64,000 nucleotides of DNA. Origin: Bdellovibrionales bacterium. Its GTDB lineage: Bacteria > Bdellovibrionota > Bdellovibrionia > Bdellovibrionales > JAGQZY01. Positions 2,065 through 60,265 of the stretch are shown here, in pieces (position 1 is the first letter of the stretch; each line of letters starts with the position of its first letter). The position numbers and the translations under genes are program-made. The notes below the pieces were generated by a model that did no database searches, was not told the origin of the DNA, and saw only the letters and a list, made by a program, of their open reading frames with translations. The stretch is from assembly GCA_031426555.1 (NCBI GenBank), contig JANPLN010000015.1, forward strand, positions 61,092 to 125,091, written 5' to 3'.

Positions 2065-2562
2065 ATGAAAACAATCATCTTCCTCACGTTCTTTTGTTTC
2101 AGTTCTTTGTCTTTAGCAGCCCTCACTCCCACCGAAAAAGACAAAATACTTTTTATGATTTTTGAAAATCAGAGCAAAAAAATCACGACCAAAGACAAAA
2201 CAAAATGCCCTAAAGGTGCGACCAATTGGGAATGCACGAATGTCACAGCCAAAAATTTTTTGATGAATTTGTTGCGTGTGAATTTGCCACAGGGATTTAC
2301 CCAAACTACGGAAGTCCTCTGTGATGCCATAACTCCCGAGACTCAAAAGCAGATCGAAGCTAGCGAAAGCGCTCAATTTTGGGCTGTGGATTTTCAGCGC
2401 GAAGTGAAACAAAGTCTTAAAGGCCAATGGGTTTGTCGGTTAGAAGTGCTGCAGGCGGATTCGCAGCAGTGGAAACTGGGTCTCGCTTTTATCATGAATC
2501 GCGATAAGAGCCGGATTGTCTCGCGACGCTTCTCTGCCTGGCGCCTTGTTCAAAACATGTAA
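2065..2562 (+). CDS. Hypothetical secreted protein
   Basis: An ATG at 2065 gives MKTIIFLTFFCFSSLSLAA, a signal-peptide-like N-terminus. I recognise no family. Confidence 0.45.
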   Translation: MKTIIFLTFFCFSSLSLAALTPTEKDKILFMIFENQSKKITTKDKTKCPKGATNWECTNVTAKNFLMNLLRVNLPQGFTQTTEVLCDAITPETQKQIEASESAQFWAVDFQREVKQSLKGQWVCRLEVLQADSQQWKLGLAFIMNRDKSRIVSRRFSAWRLVQNM

Positions 2563-4139: not shown

Positions 4140-4260
4140 ATTATGCCCCAACGGTTTGGAGAGGGGTATAGAGAAGTTAAAACCCATCAAATCGTCTAGA
4201 TTCTTGCGGGGCATGAGCCCTCACTTGGGTGCACCCACGGTGTTCCGCTATACTGAAAGA

Positions 4261-4641
4261 GTGAAAATTTATATCGTTGATGATGCCTCATTTATACGAA
4301 TGATCTGTCGCTATCACCTGACAAAAGCGGGGCATGATATTGTCGGTGAGTCCCATGATGGCGAGACGGCCCTCACGGAGATCTTGGCCATCCAGCCTGA
4401 ATGTGTGTTGGTGGATCTTTCGCTCCCGAGCAAGAGCGGTGTTGAGATCATGACGGAAGTTCAGATGAAATACCCGCACATTCAATTCATCGTCGTTACA
4501 GCGCTAGACAAAGATATTTTGGCACTCACAGCGCCCGATGTGGGATATGCGGCCTATATTCGAAAGCCCTTTGAGGGTGCAGACTTGGTAAAAGCGGTAG
4601 AAACATTGCAAGCGGCGCCTGGTCGGAGGAAATATGGATGA
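4261..4641 (+). CDS. Single-domain CheY-like response regulator
   Basis: GTG start after gaaaga. The receiver residues are present: IVDD, phospho-acceptor D in VLVDLSLP, VVTA and IRKPF. The upstream part of ORF 4021..4641 overlaps the OMP gene and was discarded. Confidence 0.8.
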   Translation: MKIYIVDDASFIRMICRYHLTKAGHDIVGESHDGETALTEILAIQPECVLVDLSLPSKSGVEIMTEVQMKYPHIQFIVVTALDKDILALTAPDVGYAAYIRKPFEGADLVKAVETLQAAPGRRKYG

Positions 4642-4948
4642 GGTTTTTTTTGTTATTAAGTCGTTCTTAATTACCTGCGTGGTTGTTTTTTGCCTACAGA
4701 TGAAAGTGGGAGAACAAACTCTGGATTACAAGCTCAATGAGTTTTTACAAAAGGGTCAACTCACAAGTATTTTGCGAGATGCCGGCCAGGGAGCCACTCG
4801 CTTGACAGCGTCTGCCTATAACACCGCAAAGGAGAGTGATCTGAAGCTCCCTTTTCAAGCTATGAAACAAGCGGAACAGGCTAAAGAAGATATGCTGAAG
4901 CGACAACAGGAAGTACAGGACGAACTCGAAGAGGTCATGGCCGACTGA
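4634..4948 (+). CDS. Small N-terminally anchored protein with a charged, probably disordered tail
   Basis: The ATG overlaps the regulator stop by 8 nt and is preceded by ggagg. It has a hydrophobic N-terminus (FFVIKSFLITCVVVFCL) followed by a K/E/Q-rich tail. Confidence 0.5.
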   Translation: MDEVFFVIKSFLITCVVVFCLQMKVGEQTLDYKLNEFLQKGQLTSILRDAGQGATRLTASAYNTAKESDLKLPFQAMKQAEQAKEDMLKRQQEVQDELEEVMAD

Positions 4949-4993
4949 AAAAAGGTCGCTTCTTTAGGAAGCTCCCTGAAAAAAGATCGCTTC

Positions 4994-6673
4994 TTAAAGG
5001 TTTAAGCTCAGTTCTGATGATACGGGTCCGACCATATCAATGAAATTATTAAACGTCGAAGAGATTTGCGACGTGGTGGATGTGCCACCGCGATTGCTGA
5101 TCTTTTTAATTTCCCCAGAGGCCGCATAGGACAATTGCAGTGAGCCCACTTCGGGCCGTGCAATAGATGTGGGCTTTTGAGTCTTAGGATCGTATTCGAT
5201 GACGACTTCTTTTTTTGTATGATCAGCAAGAGCGACAATCAGACCTTGGGAGTTGTACTTGATATCCACAAACTGGCCGTCAGAGTTGCGGGCCTGTGTG
5301 AGTCGACCGGCGCCATCATATTTAAAAAGAGTCTTCTTTTTACGGAGGAGCTTCCCCGTTTTATTAAAATACTCAGTCACTGCATTTTCAATGCGGCCCT
5401 CTTTATCGTAATCGAAAGCGAGACTGTATTTATGCGTTTCGTCGGACTGCGGAATAAACAAGCTCACCGTTTTCTGTCGGAGAGTGCCGTTTGGCAAATA
5501 TTGATAAGTTGTCACGTCGGCATTTTTTCGGATGGAAATAGGTTTGCTTAAATCCTGATGGTACATGATATCCAGCGTTTGGTTGTTCTTTTCGGAAAGC
5601 ACGCGGCTTAAATATTTTTCTTTATCGGGCCGCGTTTGATACCAAAATTCGTAACGATGTTTGTAAGCTGTTTTGCCTTTGCAGCTTTTGACTGCCGTGG
5701 ACCAATAATGATCTTTTGGGTTTTCTTGTGAAAGAGTGAAGTCGTAGGTCTCGACGCAGCCGTCACGATCTTTAAATTCTCGGACCCAATCCTTCGACTC
5801 CACATAGCTTAAAGATTTAAACGTGCCATCTGGAAACTGAATTTTGGTAATGTTATGATTATCGTCGTAGGCATAAGCGTAGGCGTTTTGCCACGCATTC
5901 GTCACCGCCGTTAAGTTTTCGCCCACAAATTTATAATTCGCGGTGAGGCCGTTCATCGAGATTTGCTTTAACTTGCGCTCAGGATAGTACGTAAAAGCCA
6001 GTTTGTTTCCTTGGTTATCGGTGAGCACCGAAGGCAATCCGGCAGCGTATGAAATTCGTAAAAACGTTTTTTGTTTTTCCATTAAATAGACAAGCTTACC
6101 GCCAGCATCAAATTTTTGTAAAAGTCCTTCCGGTGTGGTGCGGACGTAGTTTGCGCCATCAAAAACGATCTTATCCAGCTCTTTGCCATTTAATAAAAAA
6201 ACAGTATTTTTAGAAGGTGAAAAGCGAATTCCCACCTCTCCGGCGTAGCGAGTGCGCAGTTTATGATCTGTTTTTAGCTGCTCTCGCAAATCGTCAAAAT
6301 ATTTTTTACTTTTTCCAGCCTCATTCTTGCGAGCATAGGTTAAAATCTTCTCAATGGTCGTGGCTATTTGTTGAACGTTAGAATTGGCCGGATAAAAGTT
6401 AATGGCTCCAGTGGAGCATTCTGTAAGAGTGAGGTTGCCTTCGATTGTAATTTCGATTTTACTCTCGATGGGCGAGCACCAGCCAAAACCAAAAATTCCG
6501 GAGAACAGAGAGCGGCTGCTATAAGTTCTTGAAATCTTCAAAGGTGAGTTTGTATCGGCAGCTACGATGTCGACCCAGTTGTCGGAGAAATTCGCATTTT
6601 TCATATCAACAAGCGCGTGAGCCTGGGGCAAAGTGAGGTATAACCAGCTGCTGATCAAGAAGAATTTTTTCAT
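4994..6673 (-). CDS. Secreted YD-repeat (RHS-type repeat) protein, last gene of the Tad operon
   Basis: Start trimmed to MKKFFLISSWLYLTLPQAHA (signal peptide). It carries an FGFGW motif and several YD repeats (YAYDDNHNITKIQFPDGT, FDYDKEGRIENAV, KYDGAGRLTQARNSDGQ). It begins 1 nt after the stop of the upstream tadB/C-like gene. Confidence 0.75.
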   Translation of the reverse strand: MKKFFLISSWLYLTLPQAHALVDMKNANFSDNWVDIVAADTNSPLKISRTYSSRSLFSGIFGFGWCSPIESKIEITIEGNLTLTECSTGAINFYPANSNVQQIATTIEKILTYARKNEAGKSKKYFDDLREQLKTDHKLRTRYAGEVGIRFSPSKNTVFLLNGKELDKIVFDGANYVRTTPEGLLQKFDAGGKLVYLMEKQKTFLRISYAAGLPSVLTDNQGNKLAFTYYPERKLKQISMNGLTANYKFVGENLTAVTNAWQNAYAYAYDDNHNITKIQFPDGTFKSLSYVESKDWVREFKDRDGCVETYDFTLSQENPKDHYWSTAVKSCKGKTAYKHRYEFWYQTRPDKEKYLSRVLSEKNNQTLDIMYHQDLSKPISIRKNADVTTYQYLPNGTLRQKTVSLFIPQSDETHKYSLAFDYDKEGRIENAVTEYFNKTGKLLRKKKTLFKYDGAGRLTQARNSDGQFVDIKYNSQGLIVALADHTKKEVVIEYDPKTQKPTSIARPEVGSLQLSYAASGEIKKISNRGGTSTTSQISSTFNNFIDMVGPVSSELSLNL

Positions 6674-6674
6674 G

Positions 6675-7562
6675 CTACACCTTGATGGTAATAATTTTTT
6701 TGATAAAGAAAGCACCAACCGCAATAAGAGAGAAAATAAGAAATAAAAATACCCATCCTAAAGTTGTCGTAAACAGCGGCATGACATAATTGGGATCCGC
6801 AAAATAAAAAATCACCAGTAGTAAAACGGGAACAAGACTGATAATAATTCCTTGCATAACACCCTGGGCGGTGAGGGCCTCGATCTTTTTTTCGATTTTT
6901 TGTCGTTCACGAATCGTGTAATTAATTGTTTGAAACGTTTCGGCCATGTTTCCGCCGGTTTCTTTTAAAATATTCACCGCTGTAACAAACATTTGCATGT
7001 CGGGGCGAGGAACTCGTTCGGCAAGTTCACTCATACATTCCTCGATGGGACGACCAATCTGGTTTTGCGACAGCACGAGACGAAATTCCTGGCTAATGGG
7101 TGCCTTTAGATTTTTTGCAACGCGATCCATGGCTTGGTTCACACTGAGCCCAGCGCGAATTCCGTTTGCGAGAATTGTTGTGGCGTCCACCATCTGATTG
7201 ACGATTGTATTGCAGCGTTTTTCATACATGGAGCGAAAAATATACTTTGGCACCGTCCAACCCAACATTGTAAATATCGATCCAAACAGCAAGCCGACAG
7301 GAATGTTGGGCCAAAAGAGCATAAAGAACAATATCCCAAGGCCAAGACTAATCGACATTAAAGAGTAGGTAAGTTTTTTATCGTCAACTTCCACAAACAT
7401 CAGCTCCATGTACTTTGCAATTTCGTCTTTTTGCCCAATACTTTTTTTGTAGAGCCAGCTTAAAATTTTATGGGACCACAAGTAGGTTAAGAGAAAAACG
7501 ATTCCGCCGACGGCGGGAAATACAAAAAACGAATTAGAAAACAATGCATTTAAAAAGTTCAT
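6675..7562 (-). CDS. Tad pilus inner-membrane platform protein (TadB/TadC, T2SS-F family)
   Basis: 295 aa. Membrane helices flank a cytoplasmic T2SSF-like core (GLSVNQAMDRVAKNL...). It overlaps the ATPase gene by 4 nt. Confidence 0.8.
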   Translation of the reverse strand: MNFLNALFSNSFFVFPAVGGIVFLLTYLWSHKILSWLYKKSIGQKDEIAKYMELMFVEVDDKKLTYSLMSISLGLGILFFMLFWPNIPVGLLFGSIFTMLGWTVPKYIFRSMYEKRCNTIVNQMVDATTILANGIRAGLSVNQAMDRVAKNLKAPISQEFRLVLSQNQIGRPIEECMSELAERVPRPDMQMFVTAVNILKETGGNMAETFQTINYTIRERQKIEKKIEALTAQGVMQGIIISLVPVLLLVIFYFADPNYVMPLFTTTLGWVFLFLIFSLIAVGAFFIKKIITIKV

Positions 7563-9760
7563 GGTTTACCGCCTCCGCTGGCTTTTTTAACCGAGTATTG
7601 CGGGCCAGCAGGTTTCGAAGTATCCACGGGAGCGGGCGCATTGGCCGCTTCGTTGGAGAAGAGATCCTTTGGAATACCAATCCCGCGCTCCTTCAGCTCT
7701 TGAATAAACTTTGGAATAAGTCCTTTAGACAAAAATTGACCAATAATTTTTCTATTTTTATCAAATCCGACCTCTTTGAACTCAAAAACTTCCTGTAGAG
7801 TGACCGTATCGCCTTGAATACCCTGAACCTCGGCGATGCTCATGATCTTACGGCTTCCATCGGAAAGTCGCGAAATTTGCACGATTAAATCCACGGCGCC
7901 GGCAATTTGTTCGCGAATGGCGCGCACAGGGAGATCCATCCCGGCCATCAAGCAAAGGGTTTCGAGTCGGCCAATGGCCTCGCGTGGGTTGTTGGAGTGG
8001 ACCGTTGTCATCGAGCCATCATGACCCGTGCTCATGGCGGCAAGCATGTCGAGAGCGGCACCGTCACGGCACTCACCCACGATGATACGGTCGGGACGCA
8101 TACGCAGAGTATTTTTCACAAGGTCGCGAATGGTGATGGCTCCTTCGCCCTCCATATTTGCAGGGCGAGTTTCAAGCCTTACAACGTGAGTCTGGCGAAG
8201 TTGCAGTTCTGCAGCATCTTCAACTGTGATAATTCGTTCGGTTGAAGGAATAAAAGAAGACATACAATTCAGGAGAGTGGTTTTACCAGACCCTGTACCG
8301 CCTGAGATAATAATGTTACAGCCGTTTTCCACAGCGAGTTTTAAAAAATCCATCATCGGACGGCTGATAGAATTGTAATGAACGTACTGGTCAACGCCAA
8401 AAGCATCTTTTTTAAATTTACGAATTGTCAAAGAAGGGCCGTCAATCGAGAGCGGCTCAATGATGGCATTCACACGACTTCCATCAGCTAAGCGCGCATC
8501 TACATAAGGAGTTTTTTCATCGATACGTCGCCCGAGGGGAGTCACAATCCGCTCGATCACGTTGCGCAGCTGAATATTCGAGGTGAAGTGGGTTTTGCTG
8601 AGTTGAAGCCGGCCGCCTTTTTCGATAAATATTTTATCAAACCCGTTGACCATAATTTCACTGACATCGACTTGTGAGAGAAGATCTTCGAGCGGGCCGA
8701 GTCCTAAAGCTTCATCAAGAGTTTCTTTGATGATCTGTTTGCGGTCTGCCGGTGACACTCCTTGGGCCTCTTGATCGAGAATCTTCGAAATGGCAACCTT
8801 CACATCGCCTTCGAGCTTGCGTCGTTTTTCGGCGTCTTTGCTGGCCTTGGTGATGTCGTCGTTTTTAAGGTTCATTTCCTTAATCAAACGAGTATGAATT
8901 GTAATTTTAAGATGAGTTCGCGGATCAATAGAGTTTTTAGTGGTTGTATCTGAAGATTCTTGCTTTTCAAAAGTGAGAATATTATTTCGCGTGAGAGTTT
9001 TTAATTTTTGTAAAACGCCGCCGGTGAGTTTGCGGACGATTTCGGTGTAACTATTGGCGAGCGGCGATTGGGGAGAAAGTAGCAGAAAGGGAGTGGCACG
9101 CTTGAGGGCATTGGCCGTTGTCACGTCGTCTTGCGGGAGCACTCCAAGCATGGGTCGTTTAAAAGATTGTTCCAGTTGGCTTGGTGCCAGCCCCACGTTG
9201 CTGGCTTTGTTCAGTACAATTTGAATCATCTCATTTGGCAAGGTAGCGGCCCGAAGGTCGTTGATCACTCGGAGTGTTTGATTCACGGTGAGCACTTCTG
9301 GCGTGGTTACAACGATGGCCGTGGTGCAGGCCTCAAGCAAGCGCATTTGTAATTCATCCAGATCATTTCCAAAATCAAGAACGATAAATTTGTAAAAGTG
9401 CGACAGCTGAGCAATTTGTTTAAGGGCAATAGGCGGAGACACAGTGAATGTTTGTCCTGGGCCCTTGACGGCGCCGAGATAGTGAATGGGAGCTGTGGAG
9501 TGTGACGAAACAACAGTGAGTAAATTTTTTGTATTGATGCTGCCGGTAAAGTTACAAACTTCTTCTAAGGTTTTCGGGTCCAACAAGCCGGTGATAAAAT
9601 TCTGATCACCGCAGGATTTTTGATCAGCATCGATAAGCAAAGTTGAGGTCTTAAGTTCTTGCCCCAGTTTAATAGCAAGGTTGGCAGCAAAAACACTTTT
9701 GCCAACGCCGCCTTTTCCACCGACGACGCCTATAATAAAACAGTTTGTATTGAATGACAT
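7559..9760 (-). CDS. Fused TadZ/CpaE-like (MinD/ParA) domain plus CpaF/TadA secretion ATPase
   Basis: The N-terminus has the deviant Walker [12 protein letters not shown]. The C-terminal half has the T2SS-E motifs [27 protein letters not shown] and [12 protein letters not shown]. Total length is 733 aa. Confidence 0.85.
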
Positions 9761-9867
9761 TGAGCTAGATCCCTCCTCGTATATTATCGGTAAAACCGCC
9801 GATATATTTGAGGAAAGTTACTGCTTTTAGGGGATCCTAGACCCGACGATCGACCAGCCCTATGGGC

Positions 9868-11343
9868 CTACTCGTTCAAGCGGAACTTCTCTTTGACCTT
9901 ATCGACGCCCGTGCTGGCTGACGACTTGATAATAGGTGTTACAAACACTACAAACTGCGACTGGTTTTTTTGAAACGCTTTAGATGTGTAAAAAGAAAAC
10001 AGAGCGTTTTGCAAACCATCTGGGATTTTATTGTAATCCATGGTCTGCGAGTTCCCAATGAGACCAGCCACGGCGGCACTTTCCCCGCTGCGCACGGCCA
10101 CCTCGGTGGTCACGGAGTTGTTGGATATGATAGGACCAAGAGCGGTCAGGGAAACCAAACTGCCAATGTTAAAAGTCATTTTCATGTTGATCAGATCCGA
10201 ACGCGGACTATCAATGCTTGGCGTGATATCAGACACCAAGGAGACTTCCGCCGATCCCGGAATCGAAGCTCCCAATTGGTTTTGTGTCACATAGGGAATT
10301 GTGGTTTTTTGCGACACACGCCCCGAAACATCTTGTTTTGTAATGACACTGGTAGTTTTTAAAATACGTGCGTGACCATGGGCCTTGGCCCAATTCAATT
10401 TAGGTAAAAGGTTGGAAATGGTCCCGGTGATGCTTGAAATTACACCGCTGGGCTGTCGCGAATCCACCGTAAAAGACATACTCGTGTTGTCGCCAATAAT
10501 CGGTGTCCATTGAAAGCGCGAACTGTTGGAGTAGTCTTTACTGAGTTCCACATAGTGTAAAACCAACTGAATCAGTTTTTTCGGCTGCGGATCTGGTGGC
10601 GGGCGAGCGACAATTAAATTTACAACAGGATCTTCTTTACGTTTTTTAATGTCTCCTTGGTTTTCAGCTTCGCCGAAGACAGGTGGGGGCAAATACGTGC
10701 GTGCAATGAGCTCGGCGTTGTCTCTGTCGAACGCTGCGTTTACTTCGCCGGTAAGAATGTACTTGCCGTTACGAGCTCGCACTTGGACGTCGGGGTTGTT
10801 GATTTCTCGCTCGATAATTTCGGCAATTTTTTGCTGTGCAAAGGGACTGACTTCCACCAGCGAAGCGGCATCGGCTCCATACTGTTTAAGCACAGCCACA
10901 ATTCGATTGAGATCTTCGGGATGAACAACCTTTCCATCCACTACAACTTTTTCATTCACAATCTTAATCGAAATTCCCTCGATCTCGCTGAGGAGGGCGC
11001 GAATTTCTCGAACAATGCGCGTGAGCTTGGTGTCGCGAACTTCAATGCGATACTCAAAAACCTTTGTTCCCTTCTTATCGTGAATGGAGAGCGTGGCAAT
11101 CCCTGCCTTTACTGGAGTAAAGCGCAGCTTTTGATATTCGCGAGCGACGGCAAGTTTTGTAACGCCTTTCCAGTCGCCGCCAAAGTCTCCGCCCAGAGGG
11201 AGCTTGGCGAGAGTTTCTTCGTGTTCCACACCTTGATAAAGTATTAGGTATTTTTCACCCGGCTTTTCCTCGTTTTGCGCAAGCGCCAACGCTGGAAAGG
11301 CGAATAAAAATATTAAAAATACACTCTTCATATCAAACCTCAT
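9868..11343 (-). CDS. Tad pilus secretin (CpaC/RcpA family)
   Basis: It has a signal peptide and N-terminal repeated beta-alpha modules. The C-terminal secretin core ends in ...SQFVVFVTPIIKSS. The start could instead be the internal MKSVF (11331). Confidence 0.8.
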   Translation of the reverse strand: MRFDMKSVFLIFLFAFPALALAQNEEKPGEKYLILYQGVEHEETLAKLPLGGDFGGDWKGVTKLAVAREYQKLRFTPVKAGIATLSIHDKKGTKVFEYRIEVRDTKLTRIVREIRALLSEIEGISIKIVNEKVVVDGKVVHPEDLNRIVAVLKQYGADAASLVEVSPFAQQKIAEIIEREINNPDVQVRARNGKYILTGEVNAAFDRDNAELIARTYLPPPVFGEAENQGDIKKRKEDPVVNLIVARPPPDPQPKKLIQLVLHYVELSKDYSNSSRFQWTPIIGDNTSMSFTVDSRQPSGVISSITGTISNLLPKLNWAKAHGHARILKTTSVITKQDVSGRVSQKTTIPYVTQNQLGASIPGSAEVSLVSDITPSIDSPRSDLINMKMTFNIGSLVSLTALGPIISNNSVTTEVAVRSGESAAVAGLIGNSQTMDYNKIPDGLQNALFSFYTSKAFQKNQSQFVVFVTPIIKSSASTGVDKVKEKFRLNE

Positions 11344-12206
11344 AGTTCCTCGTAAGCGCTTGGTTTTTTGATGGGACCCGGTTTAACAGGCGCCGGGAGG
11401 GCTGGTTTTGGTTCTTCCGCAGGCTGTCTTGGGGCTCTCACTTTGCCCATGACATCGTCGGCATCAACAACTTTTAACGGATTAATATAGCGATCATTTG
11501 GATTTCTGAGAGTGGCGTACAACGAGCCGGGGCTGCTGTTGATGATGTGAATTAACAGCTGCACTTCTGCCGGCGAAATTTCTACCGTCACCGATGTAAA
11601 GTTATAAACTTTGCGCAGGTTATTGATAAGGAAAGAATCCTTACTGCCTTCTTCGAGTTGCGCTGGAATTGTGTCCACAATGTTTTGGCCCACAGCCAAA
11701 ATAGGAACGTCCTGCATGATGGTGCGAACTTCTTTCTTTTTATCAATACCTTGGCCAGAATCCACCGCAGTGATCAAATCAATGCGATCACCAGGTTTTA
11801 CTAGGCGCGCGATCATCTGAATATCGTTGGCAGGAATGGCAAAGGCCCGTTTTCCAGGACTGACTTGCATCGAGAGACCCGTGTCTTTTCCCGGAGGTAA
11901 AAGCTTCGTATTTAAAATCTGTTCACCTTTTTTAATTGGTGCTGCGGCCATTTGTCCAATCGCTTGTTCTGGGTTTTGCAGAGCTTTGGGTTGAACAAAA
12001 TCTTCTGGCGCTTCGGACACCTCAATCATGGATTCGTCGATGGGTTCCATTTCGGTGATATCTTTTGAGGCGATCACAACTTGTTTTTTTGCGCCGTACT
12101 TTTTGTGAACAGACGCCTTTTGTTCCTGAGACCAACTGTAAAGTAGGAAAACTGCAAAGACCGCGCTTCCAATAGATATCCAGAGGGTTTTCGTATCGTT
12201 ATTCAT
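11340..12206 (-). CDS. Flp pilus assembly protein CpaB/RcpC
   Basis: ATG at 12206 is preceded by ggag. It has an N-terminal TM helix, then a SAF-like segment (VVIASKDITEMEPIDESMIEV) and an RcpC-like C-terminus. It overlaps the secretin gene by 4 nt. Confidence 0.75.
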   Translation of the reverse strand: MNNDTKTLWISIGSAVFAVFLLYSWSQEQKASVHKKYGAKKQVVIASKDITEMEPIDESMIEVSEAPEDFVQPKALQNPEQAIGQMAAAPIKKGEQILNTKLLPPGKDTGLSMQVSPGKRAFAIPANDIQMIARLVKPGDRIDLITAVDSGQGIDKKKEVRTIMQDVPILAVGQNIVDTIPAQLEEGSKDSFLINNLRKVYNFTSVTVEISPAEVQLLIHIINSSPGSLYATLRNPNDRYINPLKVVDADDVMGKVRAPRQPAEEPKPALPAPVKPGPIKKPSAYEEL

Positions 12207-12207
12207 G

Positions 12208-12690
12208 CTAATCTCCACACTGTTCTGTTAAACAAATTCCGTACTGTGTTTTAATCCAAACTGGATCCAAGGAAATGCCTTCATTTCTTTGTCCGTCTCT
12301 GACTTCTGCACCCACTCGAGAATGTTCGTTGGCGGTTCGACCCTGAGGATCTTCTTCGATAAACATGGCGATCCTACGCTCGGTGGGGTATTGGTTTTTG
12401 TCGCCGCCGCGTTGGGCGATTTCGTTATTGGTTCCGTGCAAACGATTTTCGTAAGCGTGATAACTTAAGGTCAATGGCTTATTGCCTCGGAACCACCAAA
12501 GGTGCGAACGATGTCTAAAGATCTCAAAGGTGTAGGTGCGCGAAGCAATTGATTGCAGAATTGCCGTGTGGGTAACTCCAAAAAAACCAAGGGTGTAACG
12601 AGACAGAACTATAAAAATAAACAGAATAATCACTGATTCCAAAACAGCCAGGCCACGTTCGTTTTTGAGGTTGGGTGCGGTGTTCTTCAT
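12208..12690 (-). CDS. TadE-like pseudopilin
   Basis: Start trimmed to MKNTAPNLKNERGLAVLESVIILFIFIVL, which matches the TadE-type N-terminal motif (G..E followed by a hydrophobic helix). Confidence 0.6.
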   Translation of the reverse strand: MKNTAPNLKNERGLAVLESVIILFIFIVLSRYTLGFFGVTHTAILQSIASRTYTFEIFRHRSHLWWFRGNKPLTLSYHAYENRLHGTNNEIAQRGGDKNQYPTERRIAMFIEEDPQGRTANEHSRVGAEVRDGQRNEGISLDPVWIKTQYGICLTEQCGD

Positions 12691-12691
12691 G

Positions 12692-13309
12692 CTAACACCC
12701 GTCGTCCATAGTTGGTAAATACGCATCATCTCGCACAAAGCCCAAGGCAAAGCCCGCTTTCAGGGTTTGAATCTGTTTAAAGCGGTCTTTCGTAAAATCC
12801 TCGCATTCCTTTTCTGTAGGCTCACGCATCAGATACGAAGAAACCTGAGTGCCAAGATCATCGTCGGTGGTGCTACCTAACAAAGGGATGTTCATACTTA
12901 ACACTTTTGCAACTAGGCTGGTTCGCGCACCAACGAAGGTATCGGAGTCTTCTCCGGCGGTTTGCGAAAACTCGGCGCTAAAATCCTTAAGTTCAACATC
13001 GCTAATCTCAAACCAATCGTTGCGAAAGAAATTTCCTAGAACCGAATTTTGATCGCGTAAAAGCTTTTGAAATTTTTCTTTGCCAACGCGACGTTGCTCG
13101 TCTTCGTTTTTGTGAGCGGCAAAAAAAGATCTAGCGCTGGCGAAAGTGGCATATTGAGTGATTTCGACAACTACAAAAGTGATTGCAAACCGAAAGAGAA
13201 TAGCAGAAAACGTAAACATCATGATGGACGCAAAGATAAAATCAAGGGTCAGCATCCCTTTTTGATTTTTTAAAATGTTTCGTGCCGGTTGTTTAGTCAT
13301 CTTCATCAT
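12692..13309 (-). CDS. TadE/TadG-like pseudopilin
   Basis: Start trimmed to MMKMTKQPARNILKNQKGMLTLDFIFASIMMFTF, a basic leader followed by a hydrophobic helix. It sits within the pseudopilin run. Confidence 0.55.
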   Translation of the reverse strand: MMKMTKQPARNILKNQKGMLTLDFIFASIMMFTFSAILFRFAITFVVVEITQYATFASARSFFAAHKNEDEQRRVGKEKFQKLLRDQNSVLGNFFRNDWFEISDVELKDFSAEFSQTAGEDSDTFVGARTSLVAKVLSMNIPLLGSTTDDDLGTQVSSYLMREPTEKECEDFTKDRFKQIQTLKAGFALGFVRDDAYLPTMDDGC

Positions 13310-13313
13310 ATTC

Positions 13314-13562
13314 CTATATAGGTTCCGGACTCGCACGGCGTCCATACACATTGGGGTGAATATCGCTGCCGGTGTTTCCTTCGGACCACACACCATTTTG
13401 AATCATGCCCTGAAGGTAAGACCACGGACCACTGACCATCTTGCGTAAAAAATCCTGATCCTTGATGGCTCCCGTTCCCACTTTTGCAAATGCGAGAGCA
13501 ATCACGAGGAGCAAAACAGCTTCAATCGTCATTTGTCCTCGTTGGTTGCGAAAGCGTCTCAT
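13314..13562 (-). CDS. Small TadE-like pseudopilin (82 aa)
   Basis: Only the C-terminal 82 codons of the 306-aa ORF are kept (MRRFRNQRGQMTIEAVLLLVIALAF). Its ATG forms an ATGA overlap with the peptidase stop. Confidence 0.55.
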   Translation of the reverse strand: MRRFRNQRGQMTIEAVLLLVIALAFAKVGTGAIKDQDFLRKMVSGPWSYLQGMIQNGVWSEGNTGSDIHPNVYGRRASPEPI

Positions 13563-14047
13563 ACGACCCCTCCCACCGACAAAAAGCTGAGCCATCCTAA
13601 AAGAATAGCCACCGTGTAGGGAATTTTTTGTTGAGAGGCTTGTGGATTTCGTAAAATCAACGATTGAGCAAACGTCGTTAGCTGACCAGCAAACATCAGC
13701 TTTAAGAGTCCGATGAGCAGCCCCCAAAAGAGAGAGTAGGCGAGCACGGTTGTGCTGATGAGTGGCGATGTGAGCAAGCAAAACACCGCCAGCAATTTTA
13801 AATCGCCAGCCCCAAGTGCGCCAAAAAAGAAAAGCGGAGTGAGTGCAATAAAGAAAGCTACGCTTCCTAAAAGACTGCTCAACACGGGCAAGAGAGCGGT
13901 CTTTGTAGCACCTAAAAATAGAACACTCAAAAAAGCGCTGGAAACAAATAGCCAGTTTGGAAAACGTCCCGATTTGACGTCGAATCCGCAAGCTATGAGC
14001 AGCAGGAGTGTTGGTGCTAAAAGGGAGAGCTCGTGAAAAACCATCAA
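13559..14047 (-). CDS. Prepilin peptidase, A24 family (CpaA/TadV type)
   Basis: 162 aa and polytopic. Both catalytic Asp contexts are present: FDVKSGRFPNW and GALGAGDLKLL. Confidence 0.8.
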   Translation of the reverse strand: MMVFHELSLLAPTLLLLIACGFDVKSGRFPNWLFVSSAFLSVLFLGATKTALLPVLSSLLGSVAFFIALTPLFFFGALGAGDLKLLAVFCLLTSPLISTTVLAYSLFWGLLIGLLKLMFAGQLTTFAQSLILRNPQASQQKIPYTVAILLGWLSFLSVGGVV

Positions 14048-14256
14048 GGCACTCCTGTGGGTGGACCAGCGGGGGGAACTTGCCAGTTGTTGGGTGGATA
14101 GTTAAAAGCTTGCCCTGTGGAAAGTTGCTGTTCGACGCGCGCACCGAGGCGAGGAGCGGAGTTTCTAAAAACTTCCATCGGGCCTTTTTCGCCGGTAAAT
14201 GCGCCCATAAGTACGAATACAAAAAGTCCAACAAGTAAAACGTATTCGACGATCAC
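14044..14256 (-). CDS. Small Flp-like membrane protein lacking a recognisable leader
   Basis: A GTG at 14256 lies 5 nt after GGAGG and gives MIVEYVLLVGLFVFVLMGAF..., an EY-hydrophobic core like mature Flp. No G/xxxxEY cleavage site precedes it, and the C-terminus is Pro-rich. Confidence 0.4.
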   Translation of the reverse strand: MIVEYVLLVGLFVFVLMGAFTGEKGPMEVFRNSAPRLGARVEQQLSTGQAFNYPPNNWQVPPAGPPTGVP

Positions 14257-14346
14257 GAGAACCTCCAAGGTTTACCTAGTAAACATCGGAATTCTCAAAT
14301 AAAAACATAAGTACAGTTTGGTATATTAGACGGTAGAGGATAGAAA

Positions 14347-14392
14347 CCAAGAGACCTTCGTCCTGTAGAAGAGATCTACAAAAGGCCTCTTG
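14347..14392 (-). terminator. Compound hairpin downstream of flp (possible attenuator)
   Basis: The outer stem caagagacc/ggcctcttg has one mismatch and encloses the inner hairpin tgtaga-agaga-tctaca. It lies 25 nt after the flp stop and has only a weak U-tract. Confidence 0.35.
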
Positions 14393-14415
14393 TTTATGAG
14401 CGTTAGATGGGGCTG

Positions 14416-14595
14416 TTAGTTAGCACTAAAGCCTTGGATATCGTTTCCGAGGTCGTCAACTTTACCGCGAATGATCCCCATAATCTTATCTTTAAAAAGC
14501 ATGGCAATTCCTACCACGATCACAAGCATAAGAATGTACTCGGTTGCACCCTGCGCTGATTCATCTGTCCAAAGAGTTTTAATACTGTTTTTCAT
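14416..14595 (-). CDS. flp: Flp family type IVb pilin (59 aa), absent from the supplied ORF track
   Basis: My own translation of the minus strand gives MKNSIKTLWTDESAQGATEYILMLVIVVGIAMLFKDKIMGIIRGKVDDLGNDIQGFSAN. It has the Flp motif G/ATEY followed by a hydrophobic helix, and a GGAGG RBS 6 nt upstream. Confidence 0.85.
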   Translation of the reverse strand: MKNSIKTLWTDESAQGATEYILMLVIVVGIAMLFKDKIMGIIRGKVDDLGNDIQGFSAN

Positions 14596-14743
14596 TCGTG
14601 GCCTCCTTCAAACGGCTATGTGCTTATGTTATCGGACGGTCCGGCAAAACCATAAGGACTTTGTTTGAGACATCCGAAAATAGCGAGAATGTGTTTCAGA
14701 ATGAGACAGTCCGGGGGAGGTTAAAAACGCACTTCATTAAAAA

Positions 14744-15091
14744 TTATTCGTGATTCGAAGTGGACGGTGATTCTTTGGTTGTTTTCATTTTTTGATAAAG
14801 CTTCATGGCTTTTTGGGGGTTCGGGGGAGTTGGGTTAGCAGTCGAAAGCAAATCTCCTACCTTTATCCCTTCTCTGTCGTAAACCGATCCCTTTTCGACT
14901 CGAACCACTTCCATCAACGAGTTTCCGGCGGGCTTGAGAGTGATTTGCTTGAGCAGCAACGATAAGTCGTTTAATTCTTGAGGGGTGGCCTTTGCCATTA
15001 CAGTATTCAAATTCTTAGGCTCTGCAGATGAGGGTAGTGGGAGGATGCAAAATGCGATGAGAGCATATATTAATTGCGAGCTGAATTTCAT
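14744..15091 (-). CDS. Secreted hypothetical protein, first gene of the flp/tad operon
   Basis: It has a signal peptide (MKFSSQLIYALIAFCILPLPSSA) and an RBS ggagg. The segment VEKGSVYDREGIKVGDLL looks like a PDZ/GspC fragment, but only weakly. Confidence 0.5.
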   Translation of the reverse strand: MKFSSQLIYALIAFCILPLPSSAEPKNLNTVMAKATPQELNDLSLLLKQITLKPAGNSLMEVVRVEKGSVYDREGIKVGDLLSTANPTPPNPQKAMKLYQKMKTTKESPSTSNHE

Positions 15092-15170: not shown

Positions 15171-15232
15171 TAATAAGTAATAAGTAATAAGTAATAAGTA
15201 ATAAGTAATAAGTAATAAGTAATAAGTAATAG
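15171..15232. repeat. Perfect heptanucleotide tandem repeat (TAATAAG) x8 plus one partial unit
   Basis: Counted directly: 8 exact units of taataag plus taatag, 62 nt in total. It is intergenic. Confidence 0.97.
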
Positions 15233-15638: not shown

Positions 15639-16754
15639 ATGATTTTAAAAACTCTCAGCGACGATTTATTGGAGACCCGCTTAAAAAAACTCGTGGGAAC
15701 TGAACGAAAGATCACGCATCTGGTTTTGCAATATATTGGCGAGATAGATCGCCGAAAACTTTACGTGCGAAGAGCCTATTCAAGTCTTTTTGAGTTCTTG
15801 GTGAAGGAGCATGGATACAGTGCTGCCGCCGCCATGCGAAGAATTGAAGGGGCTCGTTTATTGATACAAATTCCGGAAGTTTCGGAAAAATTGGAAAGTG
15901 GGGCTTTGAATCTGAGCCACGTTGCGCTTGTTCAACGTGCTGAGCGTGAATATAAGAAAGAGACAAAATCAGACATACCAATAGAAACTAAGCGGGAACT
16001 GCTTTCAAGAATTGAAAATCAAACTCAATCCAAGTCAGAAACCCTCATTTCGCAAGAATTGGACATTAGTTTCGTGACGAAAAACAAACTCACATATCAT
16101 AAAGATGAGTCGGTCACACTGATGGTCACGTTCACGAAAGATCAATTGGCTGACTTAGAGCAAGCACAATCGATGCTATCGCACGCAGTCCCAGAAAAAA
16201 ACTGGGCGAGTTTAATTATTTATTTGGCGCAAAAAGAGATCTCTCGACGAATCGGTCGCAAAATTCCTCTACGAGAAATCCAAGCTCCTCAGAAAGGAAG
16301 CAAAAATCTTCAACCTGAAATTAAAGCTCCTCGGTCGAAAACCAAATCTACAGAACTGGAAATTAAGACTTCGACGCGCGAGACCAAAGGTTCAGGGCCG
16401 GAAATTAAAACTTCTAGGCGGGAAACCAAATCTTATTTGTGGGAAGCTACCTCCCACACTTCCGTAGCGGAAACGAGTCATGTTGAAAATGGAATTCTTC
16501 ATATTACAGCGCAAACCCTCTCACGAAAAAGAAAAGCAATTGGTCGTAAACTCAAGCAACAACTTTTATTAAAGGACGCATTCTGTCTATTTCGTGATCC
16601 GCAAACAGGCAGAACTTGTGGCAGTCGCCATTTTTTACAAATTGATCATATTAAAAGTATAAGCGCTGGTGGCGGCAATGAGCCGGCTAACCTGCAAGTC
16701 CTATGTGGGAGACACAATCGCTATAAGTATGAGCAGGAAGTAAAGAAAGAATAA
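15639..16754 (+). CDS. HNH endonuclease with a DUF222-like N-terminal region
   Basis: The C-terminal HNH motif is CGSRHFLQIDHIKSISAGGGNEPANLQVLCGRHNRYK. The N-terminus (ERKITHLVLQYIGEIDRRKLY...YSSLFEFL) resembles DUF222/13E12-type HNH proteins. Three 14-aa internal repeats are present. Confidence 0.75.
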   Translation: MILKTLSDDLLETRLKKLVGTERKITHLVLQYIGEIDRRKLYVRRAYSSLFEFLVKEHGYSAAAAMRRIEGARLLIQIPEVSEKLESGALNLSHVALVQRAEREYKKETKSDIPIETKRELLSRIENQTQSKSETLISQELDISFVTKNKLTYHKDESVTLMVTFTKDQLADLEQAQSMLSHAVPEKNWASLIIYLAQKEISRRIGRKIPLREIQAPQKGSKNLQPEIKAPRSKTKSTELEIKTSTRETKGSGPEIKTSRRETKSYLWEATSHTSVAETSHVENGILHITAQTLSRKRKAIGRKLKQQLLLKDAFCLFRDPQTGRTCGSRHFLQIDHIKSISAGGGNEPANLQVLCGRHNRYKYEQEVKKE

Positions 16755-34770: not shown

Positions 34771-34860
34771 GGAGAGGTGGCCGAGTGGTTTAAGGCACCG
34801 GTCTTGAAAACCGGCGACCCCTCGCGGGGTCCGTGAGTTCGAATCTCACCCTCTCCGCCA
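34771..34860 (+). tRNA. tRNA-Ser (anticodon UGA), CCA encoded
   Basis: I folded the cloverleaf by hand. The acceptor stem is GGAGAGG/CCTCTCC and the anticodon loop is CTTGAAA. It has a long variable arm (CGACCCCTCGCGGGGTCC) and the T-arm GTGAG-TTCGAAT-CTCAC. Confidence 0.97.
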
Positions 34861-59884: not shown

Positions 59885-60003
59885 ACAACTATAGGATTTC
59901 TATAGTCAGTTATATATTTCATATAAATTTCATATAATCCGCAGATGAGTATTATCAACCTCGTGAACGATGGTGCGTCTAAAAGGATTACCTGAAGTAA
60001 ACC

Positions 60004-60015
60004 TAGGTATACCTA
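60004..60015. promoter_or_regulatory. Perfect 12-bp palindrome taggtataccta upstream of the alpA-like gene
   Basis: It lies 56 nt before the 60071 start. It shares the TAGGTA half-site with the repeats upstream of int. Confidence 0.35.
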
Positions 60016-60070
60016 AGGTAATACGTAAGATCGTTCTAGTGAACAGTAATGCATCCACTAGGAGGATAAA

Positions 60071-60265
60071 ATGGAAAATCAGAATACAAACGAAAAACGT
60101 AACCTACGGGTTGATGAATTCTCGAAAATTTACGGGATTTGTCGTACCAAAACTTATCAAGAAATGAAGTCAGGAAGACTCAAATTCTTCAAATGTGGGA
60201 AAACTACGCTCATTGCAAAAGAAGCCGCAGAAGACTGGCAAGCCCTACTGTCCAAGGGGGCTTAG
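60071..60265 (+). CDS. AlpA/excisionase-type small HTH protein
   Basis: 64 aa. The sequence LRVDEFSKIYGICRTKTYQEMKSGRLKFFKCGKTTLI has the MerR/AlpA-like HTH pattern. An RBS aggagg lies upstream. Confidence 0.7.
   Translation: MENQNTNEKRNLRVDEFSKIYGICRTKTYQEMKSGRLKFFKCGKTTLIAKEAAEDWQALLSKGA

What the first reader, a model, noticed from the sequence alone, without database searches (positions are those of the whole stretch)
4994..15091. Complete Flp/Tad pilus operon organised like the Bdellovibrio host-interaction (hit) locus
One minus-strand run of tightly spaced or overlapping genes encodes the following, in order:
- an exported protein
- Flp pilin
- a Flp-like protein
- an A24 prepilin peptidase
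- three TadE-like pseudopilins
- CpaB
- a secretin
- a TadZ-CpaF ATPase
- a single TadB/C protein
- a YD-repeat protein

In B. bacteriovorus HD100 the hit locus (bd0108/bd0109) lies in a type IVb pilus cluster close to groEL, and Bd0109 is described as a YD-repeat periplasmic protein. Mutations there switch the predator to prey-independent growth. The role of this cluster is still poorly understood, so a divergent copy is useful comparative material. Only one platform gene is present, where both TadB and TadC are usual.
Basis: partly seen in the sequence, partly recalled or inferred. Interest (0 to 1): 0.6.

Follow-up and report, generated by a model that had tools for sequence, protein, structure and literature searches.

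The report
Bdellovibrio-type Tad pilus operon lacking bd0108
This is the counterpart, in an uncultured relative of the predatory bacterium Bdellovibrio, of the already studied Tad pilus gene cluster that Bdellovibrio needs to invade prey; it is ordinary except that it keeps its own pilin-cutting enzyme and lacks the small "hit" gene bd0108.

Summary
Eleven tightly coupled minus-strand genes (14595 to 4994) encode:
- Flp1
- a leaderless "trimmed" Flp2
- an A24 prepilin peptidase
- three prepilin-like minor pilins
- RcpC/CpaB
- a secretin
- a TadZ-TadA fusion ATPase
- one TadB-type platform protein
- a secreted 559-aa YD/RHS protein

groES/groEL lie 3 kb away.

Gene-by-gene synteny with 80 Bdellovibrionales loci, including B. 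bacteriovorus, shows this is the ortholog of "tad locus 1", bd0109 to bd0119. The interpretation needs four corrections:
1. The hit gene bd0108 is absent. Only 45 bp separate the YD stop from a convergent gene, and no homolog occurs anywhere in the 64 kb.
2. The "exported protein" is lineage-specific. It lies upstream of the conserved sigma-28-type flp1 promoter, so it is not part of the operon.
3. No HMM supports "TadE". Only the G-x4-E/D prepilin motif does.
4. The single platform gene and the TadZ-CpaF fusion are already published features of B. bacteriovorus.

The difference from Bdellovibrio proper is that the TadV peptidase is retained. On a TadZA tree, loss of tadV and loss of bd0108 each map to a single, separate clade. 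I rate this a new variant of a known system, of modest interest.

The parts
14744..15091 (-). exp115, a small exported protein with a weak PDZ/GspC-like C-terminus. It is a neighbour, not a conserved operon member.
   Evidence: It has a signal-peptide-like N-terminus. There is no Pfam hit and only a weak GspC_delta match, 22.9 bits against a cut-off of 150. By tblastn it is found only in L002. It lies upstream of the conserved flp1 promoter.
14694..14706 (-). Palindrome TCTCATTCTGAAA, one mismatch from TCTCA-N3-TGAGA. Conserved element upstream of the flp1 promoter.
   Evidence: It is the only match with up to one mismatch in the 64 kb. The exact motif lies upstream of flp1 in 20 of the 45 loci with 260 nt of upstream sequence, in 16 of them 91-113 nt before the ATG. 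Nearly all of its other occurrences in the loci lie just after the bd0108-like gene.
14629..14655 (-). Sigma-28 (FliA)-type promoter candidate: TTATGGTT, 11 nt, TCCGATAA.
   Evidence: A -10 element (G/T)CCGATA(A/T/C) is conserved 26-40 nt before the flp1 ATG in most loci, including B. bacteriovorus, which reads TAAAG-N15-GCCGATA. FliA dependence of the flp1 promoter was shown experimentally in HD100 and B. exovorus (PMC5430801).
14416..14595 (-). flp1, the major Flp pilin. The prepilin carries a QG|ATEY class III signal.
   Evidence: Pfam Flp1_like, 35 bits, E 9.5e-9. It is 45-97% identical to flp1 of the other loci.
14348..14392 (-). Strong RNA hairpin after flp1. Possible attenuating terminator (inferred).
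   Evidence: The 164-nt flp1-flp2 spacer folds at -39.3 kcal/mol, z = -2.5 against shuffles.
14044..14256 (-). flp2, a trimmed, leaderless Flp-like protein (MIVEY...).
   Evidence: The GTG start follows GGAGG. In 30 orthologs M1, E4, L8 and the RLGARVE core are conserved. It matches the 'MXXEY' trimmed Flp2 of PMC5430801.
13559..14047 (-). tadV/cpaA, an A24 prepilin peptidase consisting of the peptidase domain only.
   Evidence: Pfam Peptidase_A24, 43.4 bits. Asp23 and Asp82, the latter in GAGD, are read directly from the sequence. A peptidase gene occupies this same slot in 24-25 of 46 loci and is absent in 21, including all named Bdellovibrio strains.
13314..13562 (-). Minor pilin 1, 82 aa, with prepilin motif G|QMTIE.
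   Evidence: The motif and a hydrophobic helix are read from the sequence. G9, Q10 and E14 are invariant in 31 orthologs. No Pfam hit.
12692..13309 (-). Minor pilin 2, ~205 aa, with prepilin motif G|MLTLD and two conserved C-terminal Cys.
   Evidence: Alignment of 32 orthologs. No Pfam or PDB match.
12208..12690 (-). Minor pilin 3, 160 aa, with prepilin motif G|LAVLE followed by the hydrophobic stretch SVIILF.
   Evidence: G13 and E18 are invariant. Eight of 32 orthologs give weak Flp1_like hits and none hits TadE. The AlphaFold2 model is confident only for the N-terminal helix 11-67.
11340..12218 (-). rcpC/cpaB, the periplasmic alignment protein.
   Evidence: Pfam RcpC 63 bits and SAF 36 bits.
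9868..11343 (-). rcpA/cpaC, the outer-membrane secretin, with a BON domain.
   Evidence: Pfam Secretin 57 bits and BON 34 bits.
7559..9760 (-). tadZA, a ParA/MinD-like TadZ domain fused to the TadA/CpaF motor ATPase. There is no N-terminal receiver-like domain.
   Evidence: CbiA covers residues 11-212 and T2SSE residues 352-638. The NCBIfam TadA-family model scores 321 bits, below its 373-bit cut-off. The protein aligns over its full length at 54-98% identity in every locus examined. The same architecture is described for HD100 (10.64898/2026.07.08.737194).
6675..7562 (-). tadB-type inner-membrane platform protein with one T2SSF domain.
   Evidence: Pfam T2SSF, 66 bits.
4994..6673 (-). bd0109 ortholog, a Sec-exported YD/RHS-repeat shell protein without a protease or toxin end.
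   Evidence: RHS_repeat, DUF6531 and YD_repeat_2x matches. It is 38-40% identical over its full length to the syntenic B. bacteriovorus gene. The AlphaFold2 model has pLDDT 86.9. Its best PDB folds are Rhs cores, teneurin and Tc toxin shells.
4942..4972 (.). Back-to-back terminator-like hairpins between the YD stop and the stop of the convergent orf104.
   Evidence: Consensus scan. Only 45 bp of intergenic DNA lie here, which leaves no room for bd0108.

Best explanation
The run from flp1 (14595) to the YD gene (4994) is one operon. It encodes the Tad (type IVc) pilus machine of an uncultured Bdellovibrionales bacterium and is orthologous to B. bacteriovorus 'tad locus 1' (bd0109-bd0119).

Proposed working, with what is shown and what is inferred:
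1. A FliA/sigma-28-type promoter in front of flp1 drives transcription. The motif is shown; its function is inferred from HD100 experiments.
2. A hairpin after flp1 probably lets the pilin transcript outnumber the machinery transcript (inferred).
3. The resident A24 peptidase TadV, with both catalytic Asp present, cleaves the leaders of Flp1 (QG|ATEY) and of three minor pilins (G|x4-E/D). Flp2 is made without a leader and needs no cleavage (inferred).
4. The TadZ-TadA fusion ATPase powers assembly on the TadB platform. A TadC partner is probably encoded elsewhere, as in HD100.
5. The fibre passes through the RcpC ring and the RcpA secretin.
6. The last gene encodes a Sec-exported YD-repeat shell protein, the Bd0109 ortholog.

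In HD100 this machine is required for prolonged prey attachment and invasion, and the same role is inferred here by orthology. Two things differ from Bdellovibrio proper. The lineage keeps tadV. It has also lost bd0108, the small disordered CxxC partner of Bd0109 whose mutation gives prey-independent growth.
For: - HMM support for eight of the eleven products.
- Overlapping or 1-4-nt gene junctions.
- Colinearity with B. bacteriovorus and other Bdellovibrionales loci, including the flanking response regulator, outer-membrane protein and groEL/ES.
- A conserved sigma-28-like -10 element before flp1.
- Flp2 orthologs all begin M-x-x-E.
- Catalytic Asp23 and the GxGD Asp82 in TadV.
- Every locus outside the window's clade, where the contig allows the check, has a signal-peptide ORF of about 80-210 aa (most 90-120 aa), nearly always with a Cys motif, right after the YD gene. 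The seven members of the window's clade have only 318-370 bp there, filled by a convergent gene in the closest four.
- An HMM and tblastn search with Bd0108-like proteins finds nothing in the window.
- On a TadZA tree the tadV-less loci form one clade and the bd0108-less loci form another.
- Published function: PMC5430801, PMC3818213, 10.64898/2026.07.08.737194.
Against: - No expression or functional data exist for this organism. It is known only from metagenomes, so predation itself is inferred.
- The three minor pilins match no TadE/TadF model, and the one structure model attempted is poor.
- TadC, a pilotin (TadD) and TadG are not in the window, so completeness of the machine cannot be shown.
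- The -35 part of the promoter matches the sigma-28 consensus in only 5 of 8 positions.
- bd0108 could still sit elsewhere in the genome. In B. exovorus the Bd0108-like gene lies next to a second YD paralog away from the tad locus (PMC4267844).
Confidence: 0.85

Rival explanations
1. It is a generic Tad adhesion or biofilm pilus with no role in predation, in an organism that may not be a predator.
For: Tad pili mediate adhesion in most bacteria. No experiment exists for this lineage. bd0108, the gene tied to the predatory versus axenic switch, is missing.
Against: The locus is orthologous in order and content to the one essential for prey invasion in B. bacteriovorus (10.64898/2026.07.08.737194). 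It includes the Bdellovibrio-specific trimmed Flp2, the TadZA fusion and the YD protein. In HD100, flp mutants keep adhesion and biofilm formation but lose predation (PMC5430801).
Confidence: 0.08
2. The YD protein is an RHS toxin or effector carrier, with polymorphic-toxin logic, that merely sits next to the pilus genes.
For: The best structural and sequence matches are T6SS Rhs cores and Tc toxin shells.
Against: - At 559 aa it is about half of a typical Rhs core.
- The model ends in a single helix (531-555), with no aspartyl-protease or toxin domain.
- It has a Sec signal peptide.
- No immunity-like gene follows it.
- Its start lies 1 nt after the tadB stop, and the gene is conserved at this position in all loci examined.
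- In HD100 it binds Bd0108 and affects pilus behaviour (PMC3818213, PMC4267844).
Confidence: 0.03
3. The cluster is an incomplete, decaying remnant, since it lacks TadC, TadD, TadG and Bd0108.
For: Only one T2SSF gene was found in 64 kb, and no pilotin or tadG was detected in the ORFs scanned.
Against: All eleven ORFs are intact. They are conserved at 72-100% amino-acid identity in the two closest MAGs, with catalytic and Walker motifs preserved. HD100 has the same 'missing' genes at other loci and its machine works (10.64898/2026.07.08.737194).
Confidence: 0.04

Closest known systems
B. bacteriovorus HD100 'tad locus 1' with the hit locus (bd0108-bd0119)
   Same: - Same gene order from flp1 to the YD gene.
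- Trimmed Flp2 and three prepilin-like minor pilins.
- TadZ-TadA fusion without a receiver-like domain.
- A single tadB-type platform gene in the cluster.
- Bd0109-type YD protein as the gene after tadB.
- Sigma-28-type element before flp1.
- Same neighbours: response regulator, small membrane protein, outer-membrane protein, groEL/ES.

   Different: - bd0108 is absent. So are the second small secreted ORF, the downstream palindrome and the sigma-54-like promoter that follow it in Bdellovibrio.
- A dedicated A24 peptidase sits between flp2 and the first minor pilin. In Bdellovibrio these two genes abut, and PilD is reported to process Flp1 (the 2026 preprint).
- Protein identities are only 34-58%.
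Tad loci of Bacteriovorax/Halobacteriovorax (PMC5430801)
   Same: TadV is encoded within the locus, and the overall tad synteny is shared.
   Different: Those loci are reported to carry three canonical flp genes and no trimmed flp2. The window has one canonical flp1 plus the trimmed flp2. I did not examine these genomes myself; the comparison rests on the paper.
Canonical Tad/Cpa systems (Aggregatibacter tad, Caulobacter cpa)
   Same: The core set is present: Flp pilin, A24 peptidase without a methyltransferase domain, RcpC/CpaB, RcpA/CpaC, TadZ/CpaE, TadA/CpaF and a TadB-type platform.
   Different: - TadZ is fused to TadA and lacks the receiver-like domain.
- There is only one platform gene in the cluster.
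- The Flp cleavage motif is shortened (G|ATEY rather than G|xxxxEY).
- There is an extra leaderless Flp2.
- A YD-repeat protein is part of the operon.
- No TadD or RcpB was detected.
RHS/YD shell proteins (T6SS Rhs effectors, Tc toxin TcB/TcC, teneurins)
   Same: YD-repeat beta-spiral fold with a DUF6531-type N-terminal domain.
   Different: It is about half the size, is exported by Sec, and has no autoproteolytic or toxin C-terminus. TM-scores to solved shells are only 0.2-0.38.

Membership tests
Tad / Flp (type IVc) pilus system | Small Flp-type major pilin with a class III leader ending in Gly, followed by E-Y and a hydrophobic helix | tested here: met
   Pfam Flp1_like, 35 bits against a cut-off of 33.5. 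The sequence reads ...AQG|ATEYILMLVIVV.
Tad / Flp (type IVc) pilus system | Dedicated A24 prepilin peptidase (TadV/CpaA) with two catalytic Asp and no methyltransferase domain | tested here: met
   Peptidase_A24, 43.4 bits. The protein is 162 aa, with Asp23 and a GAGD Asp82. Activity was not tested.
Tad / Flp (type IVc) pilus system | TadA/CpaF-type secretion ATPase | tested here: met
   T2SSE, 202 bits. The best NCBIfam model is a TadA-family ATPase at 321 bits, below that model's own cut-off of 373.
Tad / Flp (type IVc) pilus system | Two single-domain platform proteins, TadB and TadC | tested here: inconclusive
   One T2SSF gene is in the cluster and none was found in the other ORFs scanned in the 64 kb. 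In HD100 tadC is at a separate locus (preprint). The rest of this genome is not available.
Tad / Flp (type IVc) pilus system | RcpA/CpaC secretin and RcpC/CpaB | tested here: met
   Secretin 57 bits; RcpC 63 bits plus SAF 36 bits.
Tad / Flp (type IVc) pilus system | TadZ/CpaE ParA-like positioning ATPase | tested here: met
   The CbiA/ParA domain, residues 11-212, carries a KGGVGKS deviant Walker A and is fused to TadA.
TadE/TadF pseudopilin family (Pfam TadE PF07811, TadF PF16964) | Match to the family HMM | tested here: not met
   The three window proteins have no hit. Across 32 + 32 orthologs of two of them there is no TadE hit, and one TadF hit in each set at E ~0.3.
TadE/TadF pseudopilin family (Pfam TadE PF07811, TadF PF16964) | Prepilin-like N-terminus: Gly, then Glu/Asp at +5, then a hydrophobic helix | tested here: met
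   The motifs are G|QMTIE, G|MLTLD and G|LAVLE. Gly and Glu are invariant in orthologs of minor pilins 1 and 3. In minor pilin 2 the +5 position varies between Asp and Glu and is not listed as invariant. A long N-terminal helix is modelled with confidence.
Bdellovibrio tad locus 1 / hit locus | Colinear gene order and the same flanking genes (groEL side) | tested here: met
   tblastn of all window products against L039, L042 (B. bacteriovorus) and 12 other loci.
Bdellovibrio tad locus 1 / hit locus | Bd0109-type YD protein directly after tadB | tested here: met
   38-40% identity over residues 1-557 to the syntenic B. bacteriovorus gene.
Bdellovibrio tad locus 1 / hit locus | bd0108: a small Sec-exported CxxC protein directly after bd0109 (the hit gene) | tested here: not met
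   The intergenic gap is 45 bp. No ORF is there, and there is no HMM or tblastn match in the window.
Bdellovibrio tad locus 1 / hit locus | Trimmed Flp2 (MXXEY) next to flp1 | tested here: met
   MIVEY from GTG 14256. Definition taken from PMC5430801.
Bdellovibrio tad locus 1 / hit locus | Absence of TadV from the locus | tested here: not met
   An A24 gene is present at 13559-14047. It is absent in 21 loci, including all named Bdellovibrio strains.
Bdellovibrio tad locus 1 / hit locus | FliA-dependent promoter before flp1 | tested here: inconclusive
   The -10 TCCGATAA is conserved, but the -35 matches only 5 of 8 positions. Activity cannot be tested here.
RHS / YD-repeat polymorphic toxins | C-terminal aspartyl autoprotease and a variable toxin domain enclosed by the shell | tested here: not met
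   No such domain is found in Pfam or NCBIfam. The model ends with one helix after the last YD strand.

The most novel reading that the evidence does not exclude
This window represents a natural, monophyletic 'delta-bd0108' lineage of Bdellovibrio relatives. It keeps the full Tad machine, its own TadV and the Bd0109 shell protein. It has lost bd0108 together with the conserved downstream palindrome, the sigma-54-type promoter and the second small secreted gene.

In HD100, loss of bd0108 is the commonest route to prey-independent growth. These organisms may therefore control the predatory-to-axenic switch without Bd0108, or may be constitutively facultative. The TCTCA-N3-TGAGA palindromes that bracket the tad operon in other lineages may be the binding sites of an undescribed regulator of this locus.
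Probability: 0.15. Interest if true: 0.55.

Novelty: new variant of a known kind. Interest (0 to 1): 0.3.

Why it matters
The Bdellovibrio Tad locus is now known to be essential for prey attachment and invasion. The adjacent bd0108/bd0109 pair is the classic locus for the switch to prey-independent growth, and its mechanism is still unresolved.

This window and the loci gathered around it show that the ancestral Bdellovibrionales locus carried both tadV and a Bd0108-like partner. Cultured Bdellovibrio lost tadV once. A separate uncultured clade lost bd0108 once while keeping bd0109.

That gives two natural experiments:
- A Bd0109 that works without Bd0108.
- A trimmed Flp2 that coexists with a dedicated peptidase, so the trimming of Flp2 is not a consequence of losing TadV.

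It also corrects the published generalisation that trimmed flp2 and TadV are mutually exclusive among Bdellovibrio-like organisms. The gain is comparative and incremental, not a new mechanism.

Tried and rejected
- **TadE/TadF membership.** Pfam and NCBIfam scans of the three proteins and of 64 orthologs gave no TadE hit. Profile searches of the PDB found nothing meaningful. A protein search found only unannotated 'hypothetical' relatives without Pfam domains. The AlphaFold2 model of minor pilin 3 was poor (pLDDT 60), so I ran no fold search on it.
- **Solved structure of a Bd0109 relative.** None was found by sequence, only distant Rhs cores. Foldseek gave Rhs, teneurin and Tc shells at low TM-scores.
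- **orf104 (4634-4948, + strand) as a disguised Bd0108.** Rejected. It is on the opposite strand and is homologous to the small membrane protein that follows the response regulator in B. bacteriovorus.
- **Bd0108 elsewhere in the window.** None was found. My first attempt used coordinates off by one and was discarded.
- **The conserved palindrome as an intrinsic terminator.** Rejected as a general explanation. Of 67 copies, 51 have 0-1 extra stem pair, and only 11 are followed by a T-rich tail of at least 5 T in 8 nt.
- **Known RNA families.** Rfam found nothing in the region.
- **Source record.** Exact-protein look-up gave only a 10.8-kb metagenome contig.

Full report
**What is in the window**

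ORF listing shows an unbroken run of minus-strand genes between 15091 and 4994.
- Flp1 (14416-14595): Flp1_like, 35 bits.
- An A24 peptidase (13559-14047): 43 bits.
- RcpC/CpaB (11340-12218): RcpC plus SAF.
- A secretin with a BON domain (9868-11343).
- A 733-aa protein (7559-9760) joining a ParA/MinD-type domain (CbiA, residues 11-212) to a T2SSE ATPase domain (352-638).
- One T2SSF platform protein (6675-7562).
- A YD/RHS-repeat protein with DUF6531 (4994-6673).

groES and groEL lie at 37-1972.

No Pfam or NCBIfam family matches the first gene (exp115), the 'Flp-like' protein or the three 'TadE-like' proteins.

Junctions from flp2 to the YD gene overlap or are separated by at most 4 nt, except for 107 nt before the ATPase gene. 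Larger gaps separate exp115 from flp1 (148 nt) and flp1 from flp2 (159 nt).

**Whose locus it is**

The exact ATPase sequence is on record only on a 10.8-kb metagenome contig. A search with the YD protein returned 198 relatives. The nearest (84-94% identical) are unnamed, and the named ones are all from Bdellovibrio or Bdellovibrionaceae.

A scan of one genome per species returned 80 loci. All carry Bdellovibrionales/Bdellovibrionota titles except two short MAG contigs, L035 and L061, binned as Bacillota and Acidobacteriota. The nearest are stream or glacier MAGs at 86-95% identity. The B. bacteriovorus strains are at 38-40%.

tblastn of every window product against these loci shows strict colinearity in the 14 loci tabulated. 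The order is flp1, flp2, three small prepilin-like genes, rcpC, rcpA, tadZA, tadB, YD, then a response regulator and an outer-membrane protein, with groEL and groES beyond in all but one of those loci. So the cluster is the ortholog of the B. bacteriovorus locus that contains bd0109-bd0119.

**What is already known about that locus**

Avidan et al. 2017 (PMC5430801):
- They described the TAD operon of Bdellovibrio-like organisms.
- They named flp1 (bd0119) and a 'trimmed' flp2 (bd0118) that starts MXXEY without leader or Gly.
- They showed flp1, flp2 and flp4 are needed for predation but not adhesion.
- They showed FliA drives the flp1 promoter.

Capeness et al. 2013 (PMC3818213) showed that bd0108-bd0109-bd0110-bd0111 are co-transcribed and that Bd0108 binds Bd0109.

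Prehna et al. 2014 (PMC4267844) showed that Bd0108 is a disordered CxxC protein. They proposed that the toxin-less RHS protein Bd0109 encloses it.

A July 2026 preprint (10.64898/2026.07.08.737194) reports, for HD100:
- 'tad locus 1' carries an atypical TadZA fusion lacking the receiver-like domain.
- tadC is encoded at another locus.
- PilD processes Flp1 in the absence of TadV.
- The machine sits at the invasive pole and is required for prolonged attachment and invasion.

**Corrections to the gene list**

1. *Flp2.* The codon at 14256 is GTG, 5 nt after GGAGG. The product begins MIVEY. Thirty orthologs all begin M-x-x-E, with a conserved RLGARVE core. This is the trimmed Flp2.
2. *The three 'TadE-like' proteins.* Each has Gly followed by Glu or Asp at +5 and a hydrophobic helix (G|QMTIE, G|MLTLD, G|LAVLE). 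Gly and Glu are invariant in the orthologs of minor pilins 1 and 3; in minor pilin 2 the +5 position varies between Asp and Glu. None of them, and none of the 64 orthologs scanned, matches Pfam TadE. Relatives in the protein database are unannotated. The structure model is confident only for the N-terminal helix. 'Prepilin-like minor pilins' is justified; 'TadE family' is not shown.
3. *exp115.* It is found only here and in the nearest MAG. In L008 and L006, ligA directly precedes flp1.
4. *The promoter.* A sigma-28-type -10 element, (G/T)CCGATA, is conserved 26-40 nt before the flp1 ATG in most loci. In the window it reads TTATGGTT-N11-TCCGATAA at 14629-14655. That places the promoter between exp115 and flp1, so the operon starts at flp1.
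5. *Flanking hairpins.* A strong hairpin follows flp1. Terminator-like hairpins follow the YD gene.

**The two real differences from Bdellovibrio**

*bd0108 is absent.*
- In B. bacteriovorus (L039) a 96-aa ORF with a signal peptide and a CPEC motif starts 15 nt after the YD stop.
- An equivalent signal-peptide ORF follows the YD gene in every locus outside the window's clade where the contig is long enough. Its size is about 80-210 aa, most being 90-120 aa, and it nearly always carries a Cys motif.
- The window and six relatives (L002, L008, L004-L007) have only 318-370 bp before the response-regulator gene. In the window and its four closest relatives, a convergent gene occupies that space.
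- In the window, 45 bp separate the YD stop from the stop of that gene, orf104. orf104 is homologous to the small membrane protein after the response regulator in B. bacteriovorus.
- An HMM of 28 Bd0108-like proteins and tblastn find nothing credible in the 64 kb.

*A dedicated A24 peptidase is present.*
- It lies between flp2 and the first minor pilin and has both catalytic Asp.
- Of 46 loci that contain both neighbours, 24-25 have a ~0.5-kb peptidase gene there. In 21, including all named Bdellovibrio strains, the neighbours abut.

*Phylogenetic pattern.* On a neighbour-joining tree of TadZA (midpoint-rooted, no bootstrap):
- The tadV-less loci form one clade.
- The bd0108-less loci form another, nested among lineages that have both genes.

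The simplest reading is an ancestral locus with both genes and two independent single losses. Many uncultured lineages combine trimmed flp2 with tadV, so the published statement that the two do not co-occur is too narrow.

**The YD protein**

AlphaFold2 with 102 sequences gives a confident model (pLDDT 86.9):
- a signal peptide;
- a beta-rich N-terminal domain (21-95);
- three helices (100-147);
- a continuous YD beta-spiral (158-527);
- one C-terminal helix (531-555).

The best PDB folds are T6SS Rhs cores, teneurins and Tc toxin shells, but at TM-scores of 0.2-0.38, because the protein is about half their size. No protease or toxin part is present. This matches what was inferred for Bd0109. 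What it binds in a lineage without Bd0108 is open.

**Verdict**

The locus is a divergent ortholog of a known and currently well-studied system. Its distinguishing combination is trimmed Flp2 plus TadV and no bd0108. That is a new variant with comparative value, not a new mechanism. Interest 0.3.

**Seen in passing**

*A conserved palindrome.*
- TCTCA-N3-TGAGA occurs 67 times in the 1.23 Mb of loci.
- Almost all copies are at two places: upstream of flp1, 91-113 nt before the ATG in 16 of the 20 loci where it lies within 260 nt, and just after the Bd0108-like gene.
- In the B. bacteriovorus-like loci the downstream copy is followed, after about 10 nt in most, by a sigma-54-type promoter (GGCAC-N6-TGCA) facing a second small secreted ORF.
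- Most copies have no extended stem or T-tail, so it is not simply a terminator.
- The window has only the upstream copy, with one mismatch. That copy is the sole near-match in 64 kb.

*Other items.*
- A perfect heptamer microsatellite lies upstream of exp115. Its unit and copy number differ from those in the nearest MAG.
- An HNH endonuclease gene sits beside it.
- The rest of the window is housekeeping, apart from an integrase/primase-polymerase element near the 3' end.

Noticed in passing
window 14694-14706; related loci, e.g. L039 2354 and 12060, L042 12060, L030 2406 and 12067: The palindrome TCTCA-N3-TGAGA (often GTCTCA...TGAGAC) is conserved across Bdellovibrionales at two places bracketing the tad operon. 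One is upstream of flp1, mostly ~90-110 nt before the ATG. The other is just after the Bd0108-like gene. There are 67 exact copies in 1.23 Mb of loci, almost none elsewhere. Most copies lack an extended stem or T-tail, so it looks like a protein-binding site rather than a terminator. The window's clade has only the upstream copy.
   Followed up: partly
L039 12060-12366 (B. bacteriovorus Bd16); also L030, L035, L037, L042, L047, L053, L068: Downstream of bd0108, the palindrome is followed, after ~10 nt in most of these loci, by a sigma-54-type promoter (ctGGCACaaccgcTGCAat). Next comes a second small signal-peptide ORF, in the region where Capeness et al. [quoted passage not shown] This whole segment is missing from the window.
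   Followed up: partly
window 15171-15231; L002 1330-1438: A perfect heptanucleotide microsatellite lies in the intergenic region upstream of exp115. The window has TAATAAG x 8.7. The closest MAG has a different unit and copy number at the same place (ATTACCA x 15.6). This hypervariable simple repeat could make expression of exp115 phase-variable.
   Followed up: partly
window 15639-16754 (+): A 371-aa HNH endonuclease (HNH 25.8 bits, with a weak DUF222-like N-terminus) contains an internal 42-nt tandem repeat (16339-16433). Together with exp115 it is inserted between ligA and flp1, relative to L008 and L006. It occurs only here and, at 72% identity, in L002.
   Followed up: no
window 4225-4641 and 4634-4948 (+); 2550-4214 (-): Three genes are conserved between the tad operon and groEL: a single-domain CheY-like response regulator, a small membrane protein (orf104, weakly homologous to L039 12443-12703) and a 554-aa putative outer-membrane beta-barrel protein. 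The regulator has no output domain, and its link to the tad operon is unknown.
   Followed up: partly
window 58631-62710 (+): A tyrosine integrase, a Prim-Pol/PriCT primase and a DUF3987 protein lie in a row. This is probably an integrated mobile element at the 3' end of the window. No tRNA gene is adjacent; the only tRNA is Ser-TGA at 34771-34860.
   Followed up: no
window 37723-41762 (+): A DabB-like (Proton_antipo_M) and DabA (861 bits) gene pair, a predicted inorganic-carbon uptake system, sits next to a divergent LysR regulator. This is unexpected for an obligate predator, if the organism is one.
   Followed up: no
window 14348-14392 (-): A strong RNA hairpin lies directly after the flp1 stop (spacer MFE -39.3 kcal/mol, z -2.5). 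It may be an attenuator that sets the ratio of pilin to machinery transcripts. Conservation in other loci was not examined.
   Followed up: partly
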